From a virus: DNA of 12,967 nucleotides. Within the stretch, counting starts at the first letter, position 1, and each line of letters starts with the position of its first letter. Below, piece after piece: positions 2,561 to 10,186 of this stretch. The notes below the pieces were generated by a model. The model saw nothing but the letters and a program-made list of their open reading frames with translations. It was not told the DNA's origin and ran no database searches. The position numbers and the translations under genes were made by a program. Location of the stretch: the UHGV virus genome UHGV-0805728; one strand, 5' to 3'.

Positions 2561-3090
2561 TTCAGATCTACCTCTGGTGGTGCCAACCACATAAATGGCG
2601 GCAAATCTAAACGGTTTTTCTTATCCCACACAAAATATGCATATGCTTGCCCGTCAGTTCTGCCATTGGACTGGAATGATGGGCGCTTAGATATTGTAAT
2701 CACTGTGGTAGGGGCATTTTCAAGCCACCACTCAAAACGTGCTTTACTTTCCAAGAAGTTGAGACGCAAAAGCATAATAACTACGTCAGCATCTTTCAAC
2801 GCCTTTTCTACAAACTCACGGGCCAGGCTGTAGGGAGGGTTGGTTATAATGCAGTCAACATGGTTGTATTCTGTATTCAAGTAGTCCACACCTTCTTGAA
2901 TCTCTCCCCATGCAGATCCTAACGGCATACGGGAGTAGAATACCCCGTTAACACTGTTTCGGCACGGCTCCAGATAAGTCCAGTTCTCCGGGAAATCAAT
3001 TAAGTTGTATAGACCTTCTGCACACCAATCTGGTGTAACATACTCATCATAAGCATTACGTTGTTCGTCAGGTTTTCTAGCGCAAGTCAT
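2557..3090 (-). CDS. DNA N6-adenine methyltransferase, small phage Dam-like (177 aa)
   Basis: Catalytic motif IV DCIITNPPYS (NPPY, typical of N6-adenine methyltransferases) and size about 170-180 aa as in small phage Dam-like enzymes; ATG 3090 preceded by GGAGA. Target site not determinable. Confidence 0.6.
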   Translation of the reverse strand: MTCARKPDEQRNAYDEYVTPDWCAEGLYNLIDFPENWTYLEPCRNSVNGVFYSRMPLGSAWGEIQEGVDYLNTEYNHVDCIITNPPYSLAREFVEKALKDADVVIMLLRLNFLESKARFEWWLENAPTTVITISKRPSFQSNGRTDGQAYAYFVWDKKNRLDLPPFMWLAPPEVDLK

Positions 3091-3104
3091 GCAAATCTCC
3101 AGAT

Positions 3105-3130
3105 CATAAAAGCCCTCCGAAGAGGGCTTT
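3105..3130 (-). terminator. intrinsic-terminator-like hairpin with UUCG tetraloop between the ClpP-like gene and the methyltransferase gene
   Basis: Perfect 9-bp inverted repeat, plus strand aaagccctc (3109-3117) cgaa gagggcttt (3122-3130); as minus-strand RNA AAAGCCCUC-UUCG-GAGGGCUUU followed by UAUGAU. It sits 12 nt after the stop at 3142-3144. Confidence 0.45.
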
Positions 3131-3141
3131 AAGATTAATAT

Positions 3142-3855
3142 TTAAGCTTCTTCGACAATTCCTGCACCCAGGATTTTTTCATTAAGCTCTTTTGCGGTTT
3201 TAATAATATTATCCACCAGACGCTTACGGGTCTTGTCTTTCACCTGAACCTCTTCGCCACCGTTCAGAGTAGTCTTCAATTGAGACAGAATATCCTGAAG
3301 TTCAACGACAGAGAATCGCTGCAGATCTTCTGAGGTAATCTCGCCGAGAGCGATCCGGACGGTCTCACCACTTTCCATCTGCAGATTCAGGAACACGGTG
3401 TGAACATCATCTTTCACACCATTTGCTTTTGCAGACTCGACAGCATGAACCAGTTCGTCCAGGGAGGTGCACTGGTGAATCTCTGGCAGACCTGCTTCAC
3501 CTAGTACCCCTTCATCACCTTTTGCCAGGAGCTTTTTCGGTTTCTGCCCGTTCTGGATACGCTGAATATTTTCATCGTCCAGAATGATAGCTCCAGTTCT
3601 AGCTGCCAGCTCCTCTCCGTCCAACCACACTTCTCCACCAGCCGTGATGGATGCGATCTCATCTTCTGTCAGCACCCCACCGTAGATTTTTCGATCAGAC
3701 GTTCGAAACGTTTTTTCCAGTAGCTGACCTGAGTATTCATGTTCACACCGTTGCCATAAGTGCCACCTTGGTAGTAGTGGAACATAAATTCTGTGTCCGG
3801 AGCCACAGTGCGTTCTTTGCAACCCAGCCATAAGATTGTCCCAGCAGAGCAGCAC
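3142..3855 (-). CDS. ClpP-like peptidase, C-terminal fold continuation plus ~175-aa extension (second frame of a frame-disrupted gene)
   Basis: ORF-track 237 aa, but the first ~48 residues (MLLCWDNLMAGLQRTHCGSGHRIYVPLLPRWHLWQRCEHEY...) look out-of-frame. From about 3712 downward the frame reads ...GGVLTEDEIASITAGGEVWLDGEELAARTGAI, which aligns without gaps to the ClpP C-terminal region (recalled E. coli ...RDRFLSAPEAVEYGLVD) once joined to ORF 3669..4187. Confidence 0.5.
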   Translation of the reverse strand: MLLCWDNLMAGLQRTHCGSGHRIYVPLLPRWHLWQRCEHEYSGQLLEKTFRTSDRKIYGGVLTEDEIASITAGGEVWLDGEELAARTGAIILDDENIQRIQNGQKPKKLLAKGDEGVLGEAGLPEIHQCTSLDELVHAVESAKANGVKDDVHTVFLNLQMESGETVRIALGEITSEDLQRFSVVELQDILSQLKTTLNGGEEVQVKDKTRKRLVDNIIKTAKELNEKILGAGIVEEA

Positions 3856-4187
3856 ATCCCTTCAGCATGTACAACAACGCTTGCCTGAGACTCGCGGAAT
3901 GCCTGTAGATATGCCATTGCAATGTGCACGCAACCACCAGGGCTATTGATGATCACCCGAATGCTTTCTTCCGGCTGAGCCATACGGATCGTCTGCAGAC
4001 GAGACATATGATCTTGTAGGTCTTCCAAGTCGTCGATATAAAGAACGTGGTCAACAACAGGTGTTGGGTAGCTATATGTCTCCATAATACCACCTGGCAT
4101 ACCAAACATTTTATTACTCATCGGTTCGAAGCCGTTCTGTTTTTCTTTCATGCCGTGTACCATGGTGCTGCGAGGTGTTAAATTCAT
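3669..4187 (-). CDS. ClpP-family serine peptidase, N-terminal and catalytic portion (first frame of a frame-disrupted gene)
   Basis: ORF-track 172 aa with IINSPGG, GMCCSAGT (Ser-motif region) and FHYYQGG (His-motif region), collinear with E. coli ClpP INSPGG...GQAASMGA...IHQPLGG from memory; ATG 4187 preceded by TAAGGACC. The frame stops before the C-terminal part of the fold. Confidence 0.7.
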   Translation of the reverse strand: MNLTPRSTMVHGMKEKQNGFEPMSNKMFGMPGGIMETYSYPTPVVDHVLYIDDLEDLQDHMSRLQTIRMAQPEESIRVIINSPGGCVHIAMAYLQAFRESQASVVVHAEGMCCSAGTILWLGCKERTVAPDTEFMFHYYQGGTYGNGVNMNTQVSYWKKRFERLIEKSTVGC

Positions 4188-4248
4188 GTGAGGTCCTTAA
4201 TGTTGGAAAATTAAAAGCGATCTATTTAAACCTGATTCTCATTTGCCT

Positions 4249-4560
4249 TTATTTGGCAATTACCATGGAATACTTGCGATTGTCAGAAGCATCACAGGTC
4301 AACGATTGCCAGTCTACCACATACCACGTGTCATTGTCAACAATTACTTTATCACCTGTTCTGTAAAAGGTGTTGCTTTCAATAACACGAGACTCAGTGA
4401 AGAATCGGTGTCTTCGCTCACGTAGTAGAGCCAAGTTGATTATATTACCACCGCTGTCCTTAATCCACACATTCTTGTATCCTTTATTTGCCAAAATTGT
4501 CTCGCCGTTATAGACAAACAGGCAGTAGATTTTATTCAATCTCTCTTGTATCGTAGCCAT
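4249..4560 (-). CDS. hypothetical protein (103 aa)
   Basis: ORF-track; ATG 4560 preceded by GAGGAGAAG and by a near-consensus promoter (4589-4617). Confidence 0.65.
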   Translation of the reverse strand: MATIQERLNKIYCLFVYNGETILANKGYKNVWIKDSGGNIINLALLRERRHRFFTESRVIESNTFYRTGDKVIVDNDTWYVVDWQSLTCDASDNRKYSMVIAK

Positions 4561-4588
4561 ACTGTTCTTCTCCTCGTTTTGTCAGGCA

Positions 4589-4617
4589 ATAATACCTAAA
4601 GCTTGTCTGTTTGTCAA
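4589..4617 (-). promoter_or_regulatory. sigma70-type (phage early-like) promoter P1: -35 TTGACA, 17-nt spacer, -10 TATTAT
   Basis: Minus strand reads TTGACA (4617-4612), aacagacaagctttagg, TATTAT (4594-4589); predicted transcription start about 4582, some 22 nt upstream of ATG 4560. Confidence 0.55.
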
Positions 4618-4635
4618 CAAGTGTTTTAGATATTC

Positions 4636-4656
4636 AAGGGTGGAATAACCACCCTT
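4636..4656 (-). other. RNA hairpin directly after the phoH stop codon (8-bp stem AAGGGTGG/CCACCCTT, 5-nt loop)
   Basis: Perfect inverted repeat, plus strand 4636-4643 and 4649-4656, 5 nt after the TAA at 4664-4662; no U-tract follows, so terminator function is uncertain. Confidence 0.35.
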
Positions 4657-4661
4657 ATATG

Positions 4662-5450
4662 TTACTCGGAAACAGGAGTCCAAATACGGTTTGCACGGTC
4701 CTCAATAAGATTGAGTGCAATCTGACGACCCAGCCCAGAACGAACAACATCGTCAGGACTATCAAAGCTAATCATCCCAACTTCAGGATCTGGATGTCGT
4801 GTAAAGAAATCTGTCACCCATGCAAGGCCAGATTTACCAGGGATGTCTCGTTGGCTATTGTCCCCCATAATTACAAGGGTGGCCTGATCGGAAATCCTTG
4901 TGATAATTGACAACATTTCTTCAGGGTTAGTTTGCTGTGCCTCGTCAATTAGGACAAAGCATCGTTCATCGAAACTACGACCACGAATGCTTTCAACTTC
5001 ACAAATCTCGATACGGCTGTTCTGACCGTCTCCCAGCATTGCTGCAAAAGCACCTTTGCCAACACGACGACAAATCGTGTCCATCATACTCCGAAGATAG
5101 GGCCACAGTTTCTGCATTGCATTCCCTGGTTTAAATCCTGAAGTCTTTCCTGTCTGAACGTAAGGGCGTGCAACAATGATCTTATCAATCTCGTTTTTAC
5201 GTAACAGATCTCCTGCATAGGCAGATGCCATAAATGTCTTACCAGACCCAAACACACCGTTTACGATAATAATCTTACGTGACCCTAAATAATCAAGATA
5301 CTTTTGCTGCTTCTTATTCATCGGTCGGAGAGCTGGAGCGGTGTGCTCTCGTTCGTCAGCAAATTTCTCAGCAGCTTTACGCAAACGATCAGATTTACGA
5401 GCCTCTCTGGCTTCATCACGCATGCGTTTTGTTTCTTTAGCTCGACCCAT
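4662..5450 (-). CDS. phoH: PhoH-like ATPase (262 aa) with a ~43-aa charged N-terminal extension
   Basis: Walker A GVFGSGKT, Walker B FVLIDEAQ, and GDNSQRD, typical of PhoH-family proteins; ATG 5450 preceded by AAAGGAG. Confidence 0.9.
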   Translation of the reverse strand: MGRAKETKRMRDEAREARKSDRLRKAAEKFADEREHTAPALRPMNKKQQKYLDYLGSRKIIIVNGVFGSGKTFMASAYAGDLLRKNEIDKIIVARPYVQTGKTSGFKPGNAMQKLWPYLRSMMDTICRRVGKGAFAAMLGDGQNSRIEICEVESIRGRSFDERCFVLIDEAQQTNPEEMLSIITRISDQATLVIMGDNSQRDIPGKSGLAWVTDFFTRHPDPEVGMISFDSPDDVVRSGLGRQIALNLIEDRANRIWTPVSE

Positions 5451-5488
5451 GGTGGGACTCCTTTCAGATTGAGATGTGTCTGGAACTT

Positions 5489-5839
5489 TTACTGCAACAG
5501 TTTTTCAATAGCCGCTTCCATGCTGCTTGCAACAGCCTGAACTCGGATATTCATCTCTTCTTGGTGGATCAGCTCCTTAAGCTCTTTAACGGTAAATTCC
5601 TTAGAGAAACCTTCCACCATAATATTGTGTAAGGCTTCTTGCGTGTCTACTTGCAAGAACTTCTCCAGTTTGTTGGCAGAGGCTTCTAAATCAGCCCGAA
5701 TACGAGGATCATCTGTGCGATTCAGCATTAGGCGCAAGCCATCGAGATTAGTAGAAATAGCGTCAGCATGTTGAGTAACTAGCCGTGGCAAAATGAGATC
5801 TACAAACTTATTAGCCAAATCAATACGTTCTTGTGTCAC
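5489..5839 (-). CDS. hypothetical protein (116 aa), predicted helical
   Basis: ORF-track; GTG start at 5839 preceded by GAGGGGG and overlapping the TGA of the 37-aa Lys-rich ORF (GTGA). Confidence 0.6.
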   Translation of the reverse strand: MTQERIDLANKFVDLILPRLVTQHADAISTNLDGLRLMLNRTDDPRIRADLEASANKLEKFLQVDTQEALHNIMVEGFSKEFTVKELKELIHQEEMNIRVQAVASSMEAAIEKLLQ

Positions 5840-5949
5840 TGTTGCACCCCCTCTTCGTCCTCATGATGTTTCTTTTCACGCTTGTGTTTTTTCTTAAGCT
5901 CAAGCGCAATCTCTTTTTTGTACGCCTTCTTCAAGGCCTTTTTAGCCAT
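5836..5949 (-). CDS. small Lys-rich basic peptide (37 aa)
   Basis: ATG at 5949 preceded by AGAGGGGG and by consensus promoter P2; product MAKKALKKAYKKEIALELKKKHKREKKHHEDEEGVQQ. Not in ORF track (under 60 aa). Confidence 0.4.
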   Translation of the reverse strand: MAKKALKKAYKKEIALELKKKHKREKKHHEDEEGVQQ

Positions 5950-5980
5950 TTGGCACCCCCTCTGCTTTCATTTTACGATA

Positions 5981-6010
5981 ATTATACCCGTCTAAACAAA
6001 GCTTTGTCAA
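5981..6010 (-). promoter_or_regulatory. sigma70-type (phage early-like) promoter P2: -35 TTGACA, 18-nt spacer, -10 TATAAT
   Basis: Minus strand reads TTGACA (6010-6005), aagctttgtttagacggg, TATAAT (5986-5981), starting 4 nt after the nrdG stop; predicted transcription start about 5974, upstream of ATG 5949. Confidence 0.6.
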
Positions 6011-6013
6011 CAA

Positions 6014-6487
6014 TTAGTCTACCTGAACCCACCCACCTGCTACTTTTTTAAACATTCTTTGGTTATCGCTTCCTCGGAACGGTTTCTTGGTTGGCAAATC
6101 TTTTATATACTTACCATCAATGATGATATCAGCCAGTTTAAGAACATCACTAGAGATATGGTCAAATGTGAACCCAGTATACACAAGAATAGTTTTCTTG
6201 TCACCAAATTTTTCCTTAATTTTCTCCATCAGGCCAATAATACCTGGCTCATTATAGTATGCCAAGGGTTCTCCACCCAGCAGAGAGATACCGCACACAG
6301 ACGGGTTGTCCAAATCTGACAAGATTTTTTGCAAGTCTTCCTCGGTGAACTCTCTCCCCTTATCTTTTGACCAAAATGCCTGATTAAAGCAACCAGGGCA
6401 AGCGTGTGGGCACCCAGATACCCACAAGGCAGTTCTAATACCTGGCCCTTCGGTGTAAGATATTTCTGTGTATCCGGCAATGTTCAT
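6014..6487 (-). CDS. nrdG: anaerobic ribonucleotide reductase activating protein (radical-SAM activase), 157 aa from ATG 6487
   Basis: Cys cluster GCPHACPGCFN characteristic of NrdG-type activases; the ATG at 6487 has an ACGGAG ribosome-binding site and an ATGA overlap with the upstream small ORF. The ORF-track start at 6505 has no ribosome-binding site. Confidence 0.85.
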   Translation of the reverse strand: MNIAGYTEISYTEGPGIRTALWVSGCPHACPGCFNQAFWSKDKGREFTEEDLQKILSDLDNPSVCGISLLGGEPLAYYNEPGIIGLMEKIKEKFGDKKTILVYTGFTFDHISSDVLKLADIIIDGKYIKDLPTKKPFRGSDNQRMFKKVAGGWVQVD

Positions 6488-6600
6488 AGATACTCCGTAC
6501 CACATTCAGGGCAATACCAAATAAAATCATCCAGCGCCTTGCACCAACGAAGATTACAATGACAACCGCACTTGCAAATTTTATAAATACCTGTAGACAT
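6484..6600 (-). CDS. small Cys-rich zinc-ribbon-like protein (38 aa)
   Basis: ATG 6600 preceded by GAGG at about 8 nt; product MSTGIYKICKCGCHCNLRWCKALDDFIWYCPECGTEYL with 7 Cys (CKCGCHC...CPEC); stop overlaps the nrdG ATG (ATGA). Not in ORF track (under 60 aa). Confidence 0.4.
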   Translation of the reverse strand: MSTGIYKICKCGCHCNLRWCKALDDFIWYCPECGTEYL

Positions 6601-6630
6601 ACTGCACCTCATAGTTCACTGTGTATCAAC

Positions 6631-6660
6631 AATATGCCACATCCTTGTGACTTTTGTCAA
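6631..6660 (-). promoter_or_regulatory. candidate sigma70-type promoter P3 (perfect -35 TTGACA, weak -10 CATATT or TATTGT)
   Basis: TTGACA at 6660-6655 begins 3 nt after the nrdD stop, as in P1 and P2; the -10 element is only a 4/6 match. Confidence 0.3.
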
Positions 6661-6663
6661 GCA

Positions 6664-6903
6664 TCAGCAACCACAACTTCCATAGTGCTTAACTCGCTCG
6701 ATAACTTCAGCTTGCTTGCCTCTATTGTAAGGACGTGAGTTAGGACTGGAAAGGTATCCAGACACACGTCGAATTACACTGATCGTTCCCTCTTCGTGGT
6801 TTCCACAGTCTGGACATACAAAGCCTTTAGCTGTCGCGCTGAACTCACCAGAGAAACCACACTTGAGACATTTATCCACGGGCTGGTTAATACCAAAATA
6901 CAT
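6664..6903 (-). CDS. nrdD: anaerobic ribonucleotide reductase NrdD, C-terminal glycyl-radical/zinc-ribbon segment (third frame piece)
   Basis: YFGINQPVDKCLKCGFSGEF...CPDCGNH...RRVSGYL matches the recalled E. coli NrdD C-terminus (YMGINVPVDRCFECGFTGEF...CPKCGNH...RRVCGYLG); its frame is open only from 6909 and overlaps the central ORF. Confidence 0.8.
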   Translation of the reverse strand: MYFGINQPVDKCLKCGFSGEFSATAKGFVCPDCGNHEEGTISVIRRVSGYLSSPNSRPYNRGKQAEVIERVKHYGSCGC

Positions 6904-8555
6904 AATGTGTTATACCCGAAGTCAACAAGAGCCTCTAAAGCATCCAGGTTGTTTTTCAGGTTAGGTGTCTCTATGTATCCAATGTTGCCACCAGAGGAGA
7001 TCATAGCAAAACCTTCTTCATACTTCCACTTATCAAAAGGTGAACTATTGATCCATACTGGTTGGTGGAAACTGTTGGTGATATATTCATGCTCGTGCTT
7101 CAATACCTCAGGATATTCACGATCCAGACAGGTTGCAGCTTTGTAGCATAAGCTTTCAGAAGGGGTGCCGTACAAGCTGAATGCTAGACCACTTTCCTTT
7201 TTGTACCGATCACAAGCATCTTTCATGTGCTGAAGGATTCCAAGAGCTAAAGCCTTGTCTCCCTCTCTCCCCAAAATCTGACAGGTTTCATACACACCAA
7301 TATACCCAATACTGATGGAAGCGTACCCGTCATAGAAGAGTTTATCAATACTCTCTTCAGGATCCAAGCGAGCAAGAGCGCCTTCACACCACATGATGGG
7401 GTTCTGACCTGCCTTTGTCCCTTTTAGGCGGTTAACCCTTACAAGGTGAGCTTCATATGCCAAATCCAGATACTCGTCAAGAACGGTAAAGAAGTCAACA
7501 CCTTCTGTTTTAGCTTTTGCTGCAATCATTGGTAGGTTGAGGCTAACAACACCCAAGTTGAATCTGCCGAGGTATTTCTCCTCACCTGTTTCTAAGTCAT
7601 TGTATTTGCTAAGAAAACTCCGGCAACCCATGCTCGTTACTTTGCCATCTGTAGAACCTGTCACCTTACGATTTAGCGGAACAGAAACAAAGTCAGGATA
7701 AATTCGCTCTGCAGAGCATTCCAGAGCTAATCGTTTCAAATCATAGTTAGGATCCTCAGGGTTCATGTTGACACCCTCTTCTAAGAAGAACAGCACTTTA
7801 GGGAACACAGGTGTGATCCGTTCTTCACCAAGACCCATTTTGTGGACTTTCAGGTAGTTTTTGGTAATCATTCTACCAAATACCGAGGTATCAAGTCCTA
7901 AACTTAATGTTATGAACGGAGTTTGCCCGTTGACAGAAGTTAATGTGTTGATTTGATAAAGCAACGTCTGCATACTGTCAAACACGTCTTTATCGGTCAT
8001 CTGCATTGCAACGCCTTCAGCATCCGGCAACCAATGCTCCTGACAAAATTTAAGGTTCTTCTCATAGGTAGCTTCAGCATACTGTGCCAGATAATGATCA
8101 ATATGGCTCATAGTCTGACCACCATATTGAGCACTAGCCACTGCACTAGAGATTTGGCTAAGGATTGTTGTTGCAACCCCTATTGACTTAGGCTTGCTGA
8201 CATGGGCGTTACCAATGTTGAATCCGTTTTCCAGCATATCTGGATAATTTACCAAACAACAGTTTGTTAGAGGGCTGATCAGATAGTCAAGATCATGTAC
8301 ATGGATGAAGCCTTTTATTGTGCTCTTCGGAGACACGGTCTGGCAGGATCTGTGTTGATGCAAGGTGTTTGCTAAGGATGCCTGCAAGCAGGTCACGATG
8401 AGTGTGTACATGATTGGTAGGCTTATTTGCGTTTTCTTTTGTAAATTCATCACAAGTGCGATCCAAGAAGCCACTAATATCTGCAAGAAGTTTTCCACCT
8501 GCCTCTCTGTTATTATCCCTTGTCTGTCTGTATTGGATGTATTCTCTGGCTGCAC
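6774..8555 (-). CDS. nrdD: anaerobic ribonucleotide reductase NrdD, central catalytic segment (second frame piece)
   Basis: From about 8315 the frame reads KGFIHVHDLDY...NIGNAHVSKPKSIG...QYGGQT, collinear with recalled E. coli NrdD (GDIHYHDLDY...MGNAEIEPPKSIS...IYGGTT). The first ~80 and last ~43 residues of the 593-aa ORF look out-of-frame. Confidence 0.85.
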   Translation of the reverse strand: MQPENTSNTDRQGIITERQVENFLQILVASWIALVMNLQKKTQISLPIMYTLIVTCLQASLANTLHQHRSCQTVSPKSTIKGFIHVHDLDYLISPLTNCCLVNYPDMLENGFNIGNAHVSKPKSIGVATTILSQISSAVASAQYGGQTMSHIDHYLAQYAEATYEKNLKFCQEHWLPDAEGVAMQMTDKDVFDSMQTLLYQINTLTSVNGQTPFITLSLGLDTSVFGRMITKNYLKVHKMGLGEERITPVFPKVLFFLEEGVNMNPEDPNYDLKRLALECSAERIYPDFVSVPLNRKVTGSTDGKVTSMGCRSFLSKYNDLETGEEKYLGRFNLGVVSLNLPMIAAKAKTEGVDFFTVLDEYLDLAYEAHLVRVNRLKGTKAGQNPIMWCEGALARLDPEESIDKLFYDGYASISIGYIGVYETCQILGREGDKALALGILQHMKDACDRYKKESGLAFSLYGTPSESLCYKAATCLDREYPEVLKHEHEYITNSFHQPVWINSSPFDKWKYEEGFAMISSGGNIGYIETPNLKNNLDALEALVDFGYNTLCILVLTSPWINVSSVVSLVSSARQLKALYVQTVETTKRERSV

Positions 8556-10165: not shown

Positions 10166-10186
10166 TAAAATGGGGCCGAAGCCCCC
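10166..10186 (-). terminator. GC hairpin with UUCG tetraloop plus U4 tract between nrdA and nrdB (terminator or attenuator-like)
   Basis: Plus strand ggggc (10172-10176) cgaa gcccc (10181-10185); as minus-strand RNA GGGGC-UUCG-GCCCC followed by AUUUUAG, ending about 12 nt before the nrdB ATG. Confidence 0.4.

What the first reader, a model, noticed from the sequence alone, without database searches (positions are those of the whole stretch)
4589..4656. Hairpin after phoH followed by promoter P1, which shares an extended motif with P2
An 8-bp perfect-stem hairpin lies 5 nt after the phoH stop, followed by TTGACA-17-TATTAT. P1 and P2 both read ttgTTGACAAa and both carry AAGCTTT within or just after the -35 region, suggesting one promoter family recognised by the same polymerase holoenzyme. 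Together with P3 this splits the cluster into transcription units nrdA-nrdD / Cys-ORF-nrdG / Lys-peptide-ORF-phoH / ORF-ClpP-like, with the remainder behind the 3105-3130 terminator.
Basis: seen in the sequence. Interest (0 to 1): 0.45.

Follow-up and report, generated by a model that had tools for sequence, protein, structure and literature searches.

The report
Known rV5-phage promoter behind a hairpin
This is the already-annotated host-type (sigma-70) promoter P121 of rV5-like coliphages, preceded by a conserved RNA hairpin at the end of the phoH gene; it is real and well conserved, but it is an ordinary, previously described piece of phage gene organisation.

Summary
The window is a Vequintavirus (rV5-like coliphage) segment with its genes on the minus strand. 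There is an 8-bp perfect hairpin at 4656-4636, 5 nt after the phoH stop. It is followed by TTGACA-17-TATTAT at 4617-4589. TTGTTGACAAA and AAGCTTT occur in both P1 and P2.

P1 and P2 are the orthologues of promoters P121 and P118, already annotated in the rV5 GenBank record and in Kropinski et al. 2013. The extended -35 (A-tract, then TGTTGAC) matches the consensus published for the sister genus Certrevirus. TGTTGACAA is invariant across two diverged clades while the spacer drifts.

AAGCTTT is not conserved and is no more than chance sharing.

The hairpin is maintained by G.U and compensatory changes, and other lineages have a different GC-rich hairpin at the same place. Its U-tract is poor, and ARNold did not call it in rV5. 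It is most likely a leaky terminator or a 3'-end stabiliser, not a clean unit boundary.

It also treats an ambiguous hairpin/promoter (P3) as a promoter.

Verdict: real, already known, low interest.

The parts
4662..5450 (-). phoH-like ATPase gene (262 aa); the stop codon TAA is at 4664-4662
   Evidence: PF02562 E = 3.6e-47, phrog_170. Orthologue of rV5 ORF 120.
4636..4656 (-). RNA hairpin AAGGGUGG-UUAUU-CCACCCUU, with a possible ninth U.G pair at 4657/4635. It starts 5 nt after the phoH stop. The tail UUGAAUAU is U-poor.
   Evidence: Invariant stem in 11 rV5-clade genomes. G.U and compensatory changes in L019 and SophiaRose. Different GC-rich hairpins at the same place in clade B.
4624..4627 (-). 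AAAA tract at about -45 to -42, resembling a proximal UP-element subsite
   Evidence: Invariant in alignment A4. Matches the AAAA(N3-4)TGTTGAC consensus of Certrevirus. Positions upstream of -35 are A-rich in rV5 promoters.
4610..4619 (-). Extended -35 block TGTTGACAAA; the -35 hexamer TTGACA is at 4617-4612
   Evidence: TGTTGACAA is invariant across clades A and B while the spacer diverges.
4595..4611 (-). 17-nt spacer AACAGACAAGCTTTAGG containing AAGCTTT (4604-4598)
   Evidence: AAGCTTT is variable in relatives.
4589..4594 (-). -10 hexamer TATTAT; the predicted start is A at 4582
   Evidence: Orthologous to the -10 of rV5 P121.
4570..4575 (-). Shine-Dalgarno GAGGAG, 9 nt upstream of the ATG at 4560
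   Evidence: Read. The GGAGAAG core is conserved.
4249..4560 (-). First gene of the P1 unit: a 103-aa protein of unknown function (rV5 ORF 121 homologue, phrog_5456)
5981..6013 (-). P2 = orthologue of rV5 P118: ttgTTGACA-18-TATAAT. The -35 starts 3 nt after the nrdG stop. The 12-nt palindrome ACAAAGCTTTGT lies at 6007-5996.
3106..3127 (-). Canonical intrinsic terminator GCCCTC-TTCG-GAGGGC-TTTTAT after the ClpP-like gene (= rV5 t122)
10167..10186 (-). Canonical terminator GGGGC-TTCG-GCCCC-ATTTT between nrdA and nrdB (= rV5 t109).
6631..6660 (-). Its spacer is the hairpin GTCACA-AGGA-TGTGGC (6651-6636). It can be read as a promoter or as a terminator.
   Evidence: RNAmotif terminator calls on both strands in related phages. 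Not annotated as a promoter in rV5.

Best explanation
The 101-nt gap between phoH and the next gene of this rV5-like coliphage holds two independent, ordinary transcription signals.

(1) A stable RNA hairpin forms in the phoH transcript 5 nt after the stop codon. Because its U-tract is weak, it most likely causes only partial intrinsic termination. It may also protect the 3' end of the P2-nrd/phoH message from 3'-exonucleases. It would also reduce occlusion of the promoter just downstream.

(2) P1 is a strong promoter for the unmodified host sigma-70 RNA polymerase. It consists of an AAAA tract, TGTTGACAA, a 17-nt spacer and TATTAT. It probably starts transcription near A4582 and re-drives the 103-aa ORF and the ClpP-like gene as far as the canonical terminator at 3127-3106.

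P1 is the orthologue of the published rV5 promoter P121, and P2 is the orthologue of P118.

Shown: the sequence features, their orthology, their conservation, and base-pair-preserving substitutions in the hairpin. Inferred: that transcription actually starts there, how much terminates at the hairpin, and any effect on RNA stability.
For: Identity of the window: 98.8% to Vequintavirus Aya and about 93% to more than 100 rV5-like genomes.

The rV5 GenBank record annotates 'Sigma70-type promoter; P121' and 'P118' at the orthologous positions. Kropinski 2013 Table S4 lists their sequences, together with t109 and t122.

Promoter quality is 11/12 and 12/12, which is more than simulation gives, and all the best sites lie on the coding strand.

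Phylogenetic footprint: TGTTGACAA and TAT..T are invariant between two clades whose spacers differ at most positions. Within the rV5 clade the -35 hexamer is invariant and the -10 is nearly so.

In the rV5 genome, TGTTGACA occurs 33 times against 5 expected. T at -2 (50%) and G at -1 (46%) are seen only at TTGACA sites that have a -10. Certrevirus has the published consensus AAAA(N3-4)TGTTGAC(N17-19)TATAAT.

Hairpin: -13.9 kcal/mol. In L019 two A-U pairs become G.U. In SophiaRose three pairs change on both sides and stay paired. Clade B has unrelated GC stems with UUCG loops at the same site. G.U tolerance and UUCG loops point to an RNA-level structure.

Homing-endonuclease genes are inserted exactly between the hairpin and the promoter in several genomes. 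This shows that the two are separable modules, with the hairpin belonging to phoH and the promoter to the downstream ORF.
Against: No transcript data were found for any rV5-like phage in the searchable literature, so neither initiation nor termination has been observed.

The sense-strand tail has only 4 U in 8, with only two contiguous. In L009 it is an A-tract.

ARNold did not list the hairpin among the 20 rV5 terminators. RNAmotif called it on the antisense strand in a related phage.

Within the rV5 clade the hairpin is invariant. The covariation evidence therefore rests on a few lineages (L019, SophiaRose/L018, clade B).

Sister genera (Seunavirus, Mydovirus) lack the whole intergenic region, so neither element is essential to the gene cluster.
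Confidence: 0.62

Rival explanations
1. The hairpin is an efficient intrinsic terminator. It cleanly ends the P2 unit, so P1 is the only source of transcripts for the ORF121/ClpP-like genes.
For: The position right after a stop codon and a stem energy in the range of the rV5 terminators, which span -11.5 to -24.7 kcal/mol. In one clade-B genome (L007) the equivalent hairpin is followed by UUUUAC.
Against: The tail UUGAAUAU fails the tool's criterion of at least 5 T in 8. The hairpin is absent from the ARNold list for rV5, although t109 and t122 nearby were found. L009 has an A-tract after its hairpin.
Confidence: 0.18
2. The hairpin acts on the other strand, or on both. It would stop antisense transcription running into phoH.
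For: The antisense tail is slightly more U-rich: 5/8 in the window and 6/8 in ECP32-type phages. RNAmotif calls it on the antisense strand in an O177 phage.
Against: The window has no genes and no strong promoter-like site on the plus strand upstream of it; the best plus-strand sites score 9/12. The whole rV5 block 82-163 is transcribed in one direction. L009 has poor tails on both strands.
Confidence: 0.08
3. The inverted repeat is a DNA site for a dimeric protein centred near -64 of P1. The protein could be an activator or repressor, or a homing-endonuclease recognition sequence.
For: It is a perfect palindrome-like repeat just upstream of a promoter. Homing endonuclease genes insert next to it.
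Against: In L019 pairing is kept through G.U, which means nothing in duplex DNA. Clade B replaces the sequence by unrelated GC stems with UUCG loops. In endonuclease-bearing genomes the repeat lies about 1 kb from P1, yet P1 is unchanged.
Confidence: 0.04
4. AAGCTTT, or the palindrome ACAAAGCTTTGT at P2, is an operator for a phage regulator that co-controls P1 and P2.
For: The 7-mer is shared by two neighbouring promoters and is retained in rV5 and SophiaRose. The 12-nt palindrome overlaps the P2 -35.
Against: The offsets differ by 7 nt. There are four variant spellings among close relatives. It is absent from L006 P2 and from clade B P1. It is not enriched in the window. Sharing a 7-mer is at the chance rate among rV5 promoters. 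The palindrome occurs once in the rV5 genome.
Confidence: 0.04
5. Both features are chance matches with no function.
For: 8.5% of simulated windows contain two sites scoring >=11/12. 3 of 200 shuffles fold as well as the hairpin.
Against: Conservation of exactly the hexamers and the stem across diverged clades. Placement in one of the few intergenic gaps, on the coding strand, upstream of a Shine-Dalgarno sequence and ATG.
Confidence: 0.04

Closest known systems
Promoters P121 and P118 of Escherichia phage rV5 (GenBank DQ832317; Kropinski et al. 2013, Virol J 10:76, Table S4)
   Same: Orthologous position, downstream of phoH and of nrdG respectively. P121 has the same -35 hexamer, the same -10 hexamer and the same 17-nt spacer length. 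P118 has the same hexamers with an 18-nt spacer. The flanking sequence is about 86% identical.
   Different: A few spacer substitutions (for example GGT to GAC). P118 in rV5 reads tcgTTGACA rather than ttgTTGACA. Both are computational predictions in rV5 as well and have never been mapped experimentally.
Certrevirus (Vequintavirinae) putative early promoter AAAA(N3-4)TGTTGAC(N17-19)TATAAT (Buttimer et al. 2020, PMC7344957)
   Same: P1 reads AAAA-N4-TGTTGAC-N18-TATTAT, with the same TG extension and the same upstream A-tract.
   Different: A different genus and host. P2 lacks the A-tract because it abuts the nrdG coding sequence. The match to the consensus was tested here by eye only, not with the authors' MEME matrix.
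Rho-independent terminators of rV5 (t109, t122 and others)
   Same: A GC-rich stem-loop of similar energy, directly after a stop codon.
   Different: No run of U after the stem. It was not detected by ARNold in the sense orientation.
T4 early promoters (from memory: G just upstream of a TTTAC -35 element, an A-rich upstream region, recognised by unmodified host sigma-70 holoenzyme)
   Same: A host-polymerase promoter with conserved bases flanking the -35 and an upstream A-tract.
   Different: Recalled from memory, not tested here. The hexamer differs, and rV5-like phages have no Alt/MotA/gp55 homologues.

Membership tests
Bacterial sigma-70 (housekeeping) promoter | -35 hexamer close to TTGACA | tested here: met
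   TTGACA, 6/6, at 4617-4612.
Bacterial sigma-70 (housekeeping) promoter | -10 hexamer close to TATAAT with A at position 2 and T at position 6 | tested here: met
   TATTAT, 5/6, at 4594-4589.
Bacterial sigma-70 (housekeeping) promoter | Spacer of 17 +/- 1 nt | tested here: met
   17 nt. 17-18 nt in all relatives.
Bacterial sigma-70 (housekeeping) promoter | Transcription actually initiates about 7 nt downstream of the -10 | not testable with these tools
   No transcript mapping for rV5-like phages was found.
rV5 promoter P121 (orthology) | Same position between the phoH and ORF121 homologues, with alignable sequence | tested here: met
Vequintavirinae extended early-promoter consensus AAAA(N3-4)TGTTGAC(N17-19)TATAAT | TG immediately 5' of TTGAC and an AAAA tract 3-4 nt further upstream | tested here: met
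   P1 reads AAAA-CACT-TGTTGAC. P2 has the TG but no A-tract. Consensus taken.
Rho-independent (intrinsic) terminator | Stable GC-rich stem-loop just downstream of a gene | tested here: met
   8-9 bp, -13.9 kcal/mol, 5 nt after the stop.
Rho-independent (intrinsic) terminator | U-rich tract immediately 3' of the stem | tested here: not met
   UUGAAUAU after the GC core, 4 U in 8 with 2 contiguous. Not listed by the terminator scan or by ARNold for rV5.
Rho-independent (intrinsic) terminator | Transcripts end at the site in vivo or in vitro | not testable with these tools
   No data are available.
Conserved structured RNA element | Base pairs maintained through compensatory or wobble substitutions among homologues | tested here: met
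   L019: two A-U to G.U changes. SophiaRose/L018: three pairs changed on both sides and all 9 still paired. The automatic alignment mis-registers the 6-nt loop and recovers only one of these. No Rfam family matches.

The most novel reading that the evidence does not exclude
The U-tract-poor hairpin might not be a terminator at all. It could be a dedicated RNA element kept by selection across Vequintavirus. One possibility is a processing or stability determinant that sets the phoH : ClpP expression ratio. Another is a landing-pad or translational-control structure exploited by the free-standing homing endonucleases that insert right after it. In SophiaRose an AGGAG sequence lies just 5' of the stem and the endonuclease ATG lies 9 nt 3' of it. 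In addition, the invariant TGTTGACAA could reflect an extra contact made by a phage-modified polymerase (rV5 encodes an Srd-like gp11), rather than by plain sigma-70.
Probability: 0.1. Interest if true: 0.35.

Novelty: already known. Interest (0 to 1): 0.12.

Why it matters
It matters little beyond annotation. The work confirms that the published, purely computational rV5 promoter set is backed by cross-clade conservation. It shows that the promoters of this phage subfamily share a slightly extended -35 (A-tract ... TGTTGACAa). It also flags a conserved hairpin after phoH that was not annotated in rV5. That hairpin would be worth including when rV5-like therapeutic phages are engineered or when their transcriptomes are finally mapped.

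Tried and rejected
(1) AAGCTTT as a regulatory motif. Rejected on grounds of offset, non-conservation and chance rate.

(2) The third TTGTTGACAAT at 4343-4333 as another family member. It lies inside the ORF121 coding sequence, where it encodes the conserved I-V-D-N. Of the 17 TGTTGACAA sites in rV5, only about a third have a usable -10, so it is probably coding coincidence.

(3) Rfam search of the whole window: no family at gathering threshold.

(4) IMG/VR scans with the PhoH protein and with a degenerate P1 pattern gave only 4 loci and 1 locus. A four-sequence alignment gave 9 loci.

(5) RNAalifold on an automatic alignment mis-registered the SophiaRose loop. I relied on single-sequence folds and a hand-registered pair table instead.

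(6) Looked for the same gap in sister genera. Seunavirus and Mydovirus have phoH abutting the next gene, so they give no information on the elements.

(7) Literature search for transcript maps of rV5-like phages found nothing usable.

Full report
WHAT THE WINDOW IS. The window is 98.8% identical over 3000-7000 to Vequintavirinae sp. EcoIv14a_Aya. It is about 93% identical to more than 100 rV5-like coliphages (FFH2, V18, slur, the Basel collection and others). All genes run on the minus strand in rV5 order: nrdA, nrdB, grx, nrdD, a small Cys-rich ORF, nrdG, two small ORFs, phoH, a 103-aa ORF, a ClpP-like protease, and so on. PhoH (PF02562, E = 3.6e-47) and the ClpP-like protein (PF00574) are confirmed. 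A metagenome contig, CYGL01000294.1, is identical over the region examined.

THE OBSERVATION. Read on the minus strand, the sequence is ...GAG TAA c atat AAGGGTGG ttatt CCACCCTT gaatatctAAAAcact TG TTGACA AAcagacAAGCTTTagg TATTAT tgcctgAcaaaacGAGGAGaagaacagt ATG.
- The stop codon is at 4664-4662.
- The 8-bp perfect stem is at 4656-4649 / 4643-4636, with a 5-nt loop.
- The -35 is at 4617-4612, the spacer is 17 nt, and the -10 is at 4594-4589.

As RNA the hairpin folds at -13.9 kcal/mol, with z = -2.45 against dinucleotide shuffles. P1 scores 11/12 and P2 (6010-5981) scores 12/12. Two sites scoring >=11/12 compare with 0.37 expected, and 14 sites scoring >=10/12 compare with 5.9 +/- 2.5. The eleven best sites all lie on the coding strand. 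TTGTTGACAAA occurs exactly at P1 and P2. AAGCTTT is in both promoters, but it begins 7 nt after the -35 in P1 and immediately after it in P2.

IT IS ALREADY ANNOTATED. The rV5 GenBank record carries 'Sigma70-type promoter; P121' between ORF 120 (PhoH) and ORF 121. It carries 'P118' directly after nrdG. Table S4 of Kropinski et al. 2013 lists P121 as AAAACAGTTG*TTGACAAACAGGTAAGCTTTAGATATTAT* and P118 as TTGACAAAGCTTTGTTAAGTTGGTTATAAT. It also lists terminators t109 (after nrdA) and t122 (GCCCTCTTCGGAGGGCTTTTAT, after ClpP). The authors found 33 sigma-70-like promoters spread over the genome and concluded that the host polymerase is probably used without reprogramming. For the sister genus Certrevirus, a conserved promoter consensus AAAA(N3-4)TGTTGAC(N17-19)TATAAT has been published. 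P1 fits it as AAAA-N4-TGTTGAC-N18-TATTAT.

IS THE EXTENDED MOTIF REAL? Yes, as a family property.
- In the rV5 genome TTGACA occurs 179 times (83 expected), TGTTGACA 33 times (5 expected) and TTGTTGACAA 8 times (0.4 expected).
- Among the 56 TTGACA sites that also have a -10 at 16-18 nt, T is at -2 in 50% and G at -1 in 46%. A dominates from -10 to -4, and A follows the hexamer in 43%.
- TTGACA sites without a -10 show none of this except some T at -2.
- Across two diverged Vequintavirus clades (PhoH 85% identical, ORF121 about 40% identical), the P1 orthologues keep TGTTGACAA and TAT..T invariant while the spacer changes at most positions.
- Within the rV5 clade (12 genomes) the -35 hexamer, the A-tract and most of the -10 are invariant.
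- For P2 the TG is not conserved: tcg in rV5, cta in L006, tgg/tga in clade B.

IS AAGCTTT REAL? No.
- Close relatives spell it AAGATTT (FFH2), GAGATTT (L019), GAGCTTT (HMD-6) and AAGTTTT (ECP32).
- Clade B P1 and L006 P2 lack it.
- The window holds 5 copies against 2.9 +/- 1.9 expected.
- Among the 33 published rV5 promoters, 8 of 528 pairs share some spacer 7-mer against 5.8 +/- 2.5 after shuffling.

THE HAIRPIN. It is invariant in 11 rV5-clade genomes, so those say nothing about pairing. Other lineages are informative.
- L006/L019 has GGGGGGUGG-UUCUG-CCACCCUU. Two A-U pairs have become G.U.
- SophiaRose and L018, whose PhoH is only 60% identical, have AGAGGGUGA-UAUUAU-UCACCCUCU. Three pairs have changed on both sides and all nine still pair.
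- Clade B genomes carry different hairpins at the same place after the stop: GGGGGC-UUCG-GCCCCC, GAGGGGC-UUCG-GCCCCUC, AGGGGC-UUCG-GCCCCU and GGGGG-UAGAAG-CCCCC. They fold at -14 to -22 kcal/mol with z from -3.5 to -5.6.

Wobble tolerance and UUCG tetraloops argue for an RNA structure rather than a protein-binding DNA palindrome.

The tail is poor, however. After the GC core the window has UUGAAUAU (4 U in 8). L009 has AAAAAUAU. The antisense tail is marginally better at 5 in 8. The scan tool did not list the hairpin. ARNold did not list it for rV5, although it found t109 and t122 nearby. In an O177 Vequintavirus, RNAmotif called it on the antisense strand. No plus-strand promoter or gene makes an antisense role plausible. 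I therefore read it as a leaky terminator and/or a 3'-end protecting stem. Placed just upstream of P1, it would also limit occlusion of P1 by polymerases coming from P2. A stable hairpin directly upstream of a promoter recurs at a few other rV5 promoters (P036, P074, P164) but is not general.

MODULARITY. In SophiaRose, L018 and several clade-B genomes, a homing-endonuclease gene sits exactly between the hairpin and P1. In SophiaRose it is annotated as a GIY-YIG nuclease. The hairpin stays with phoH and the promoter stays with ORF121. The endonuclease stop codon TGA lies inside the -35 hexamer (...AAT TGT TGA CAA). Seunavirus and Mydovirus have phoH abutting a different next gene, with neither element present. 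Both elements are thus genus-level features, not intrinsic to the gene cluster.

THE TRANSCRIPTION-UNIT MAP. P2 begins 3 nt after the nrdG stop with no terminator before it, so the units overlap by read-through. P3 (6660-6631) has as its spacer the hairpin GTCACA-AGGA-TGTGGC. The scan tool here, and RNAmotif in related phages, score that hairpin as terminator-like. rV5 annotates no promoter there. P3 is therefore ambiguous.

VERDICT. The features are real and under selection, but they are known kinds of thing at a known place. The promoter is annotated in the type phage, and the extended consensus is published for the subfamily. The only modest addition is evidence that the hairpin after phoH is conserved by compensatory change despite lacking a proper U-tract. 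No experimental transcript map exists for this phage group in the searchable literature. Function therefore remains inferred.

Noticed in passing
window ~3685, ~6909, ~8313, ~11501 (also ~311 and ~1227): Relative to the 98%-identical phage Aya, the window has single-base indels in or beside T-runs. These split the ClpP-like gene, nrdD (into three ORFs) and nrdA into overlapping reading frames. Aya has intact genes of 351, 714 and 776 codons. Assembly or sequencing errors are the likely cause, but real pseudogenes are not excluded.
   Followed up: partly
L010 3339-4268; L018; L007/L008/L021/L022 (same intergenic site as window 4618-4635): The gap between the phoH hairpin and P1 is a hot spot for free-standing homing-endonuclease genes in both Vequintavirus clades. 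The SophiaRose gene is annotated as a GIY-YIG nuclease. Its last codons, Cys-stop (TGT TGA), are the TG flank plus the first bases of the -35 hexamer. In SophiaRose an AGGAG lies just 5' of the hairpin and the endonuclease ATG lies 9 nt 3' of it, which hints at hairpin-dependent translation.
   Followed up: partly
L010 2501-3295 (SophiaRose phoH): SophiaRose PhoH is only 60% identical to the window's protein. The neighbouring ORF121 homologue is 93% identical, and P1 and P2 are nearly identical. An allele replacement seems to have occurred next to the inserted endonuclease gene.
   Followed up: no
window 4333-4343 (minus strand): A third copy of the extended motif, TTGTTGACAAT, is followed at 18 nt by TAGACT. 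It lies inside the ORF121 coding sequence, where it encodes the conserved I-V-D-N. It is conserved in L006 and SophiaRose. It is probably a coding coincidence, but an internal promoter for the ClpP-like gene is possible.
   Followed up: partly
window 5996-6007 (minus strand): A perfect 12-nt palindrome, ACAAAGCTTTGT, overlaps the -35 of P2. It is conserved in rV5 and SophiaRose and occurs only once in the rV5 genome.
   Followed up: partly
Related phages have it predicted as a terminator on both strands.
   Followed up: partly
window 6484-6612 and 6664-6903: The glycyl-radical C-terminus of NrdD (IRRVSGYL...) is in a separate frame. The 42-aa Cys-rich ORF before nrdG matches a 'ribonucleotide reductase' PHROG (phrog_20137). 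In relatives nrdD is variously split by HNH or GIY-YIG endonuclease genes.
   Followed up: no
phage database hits: Nineteen records named 'Campylobacter phage' are about 92% identical to this E. coli Vequintavirus region. They look like mislabelled or contaminating coliphage genomes.
   Followed up: no
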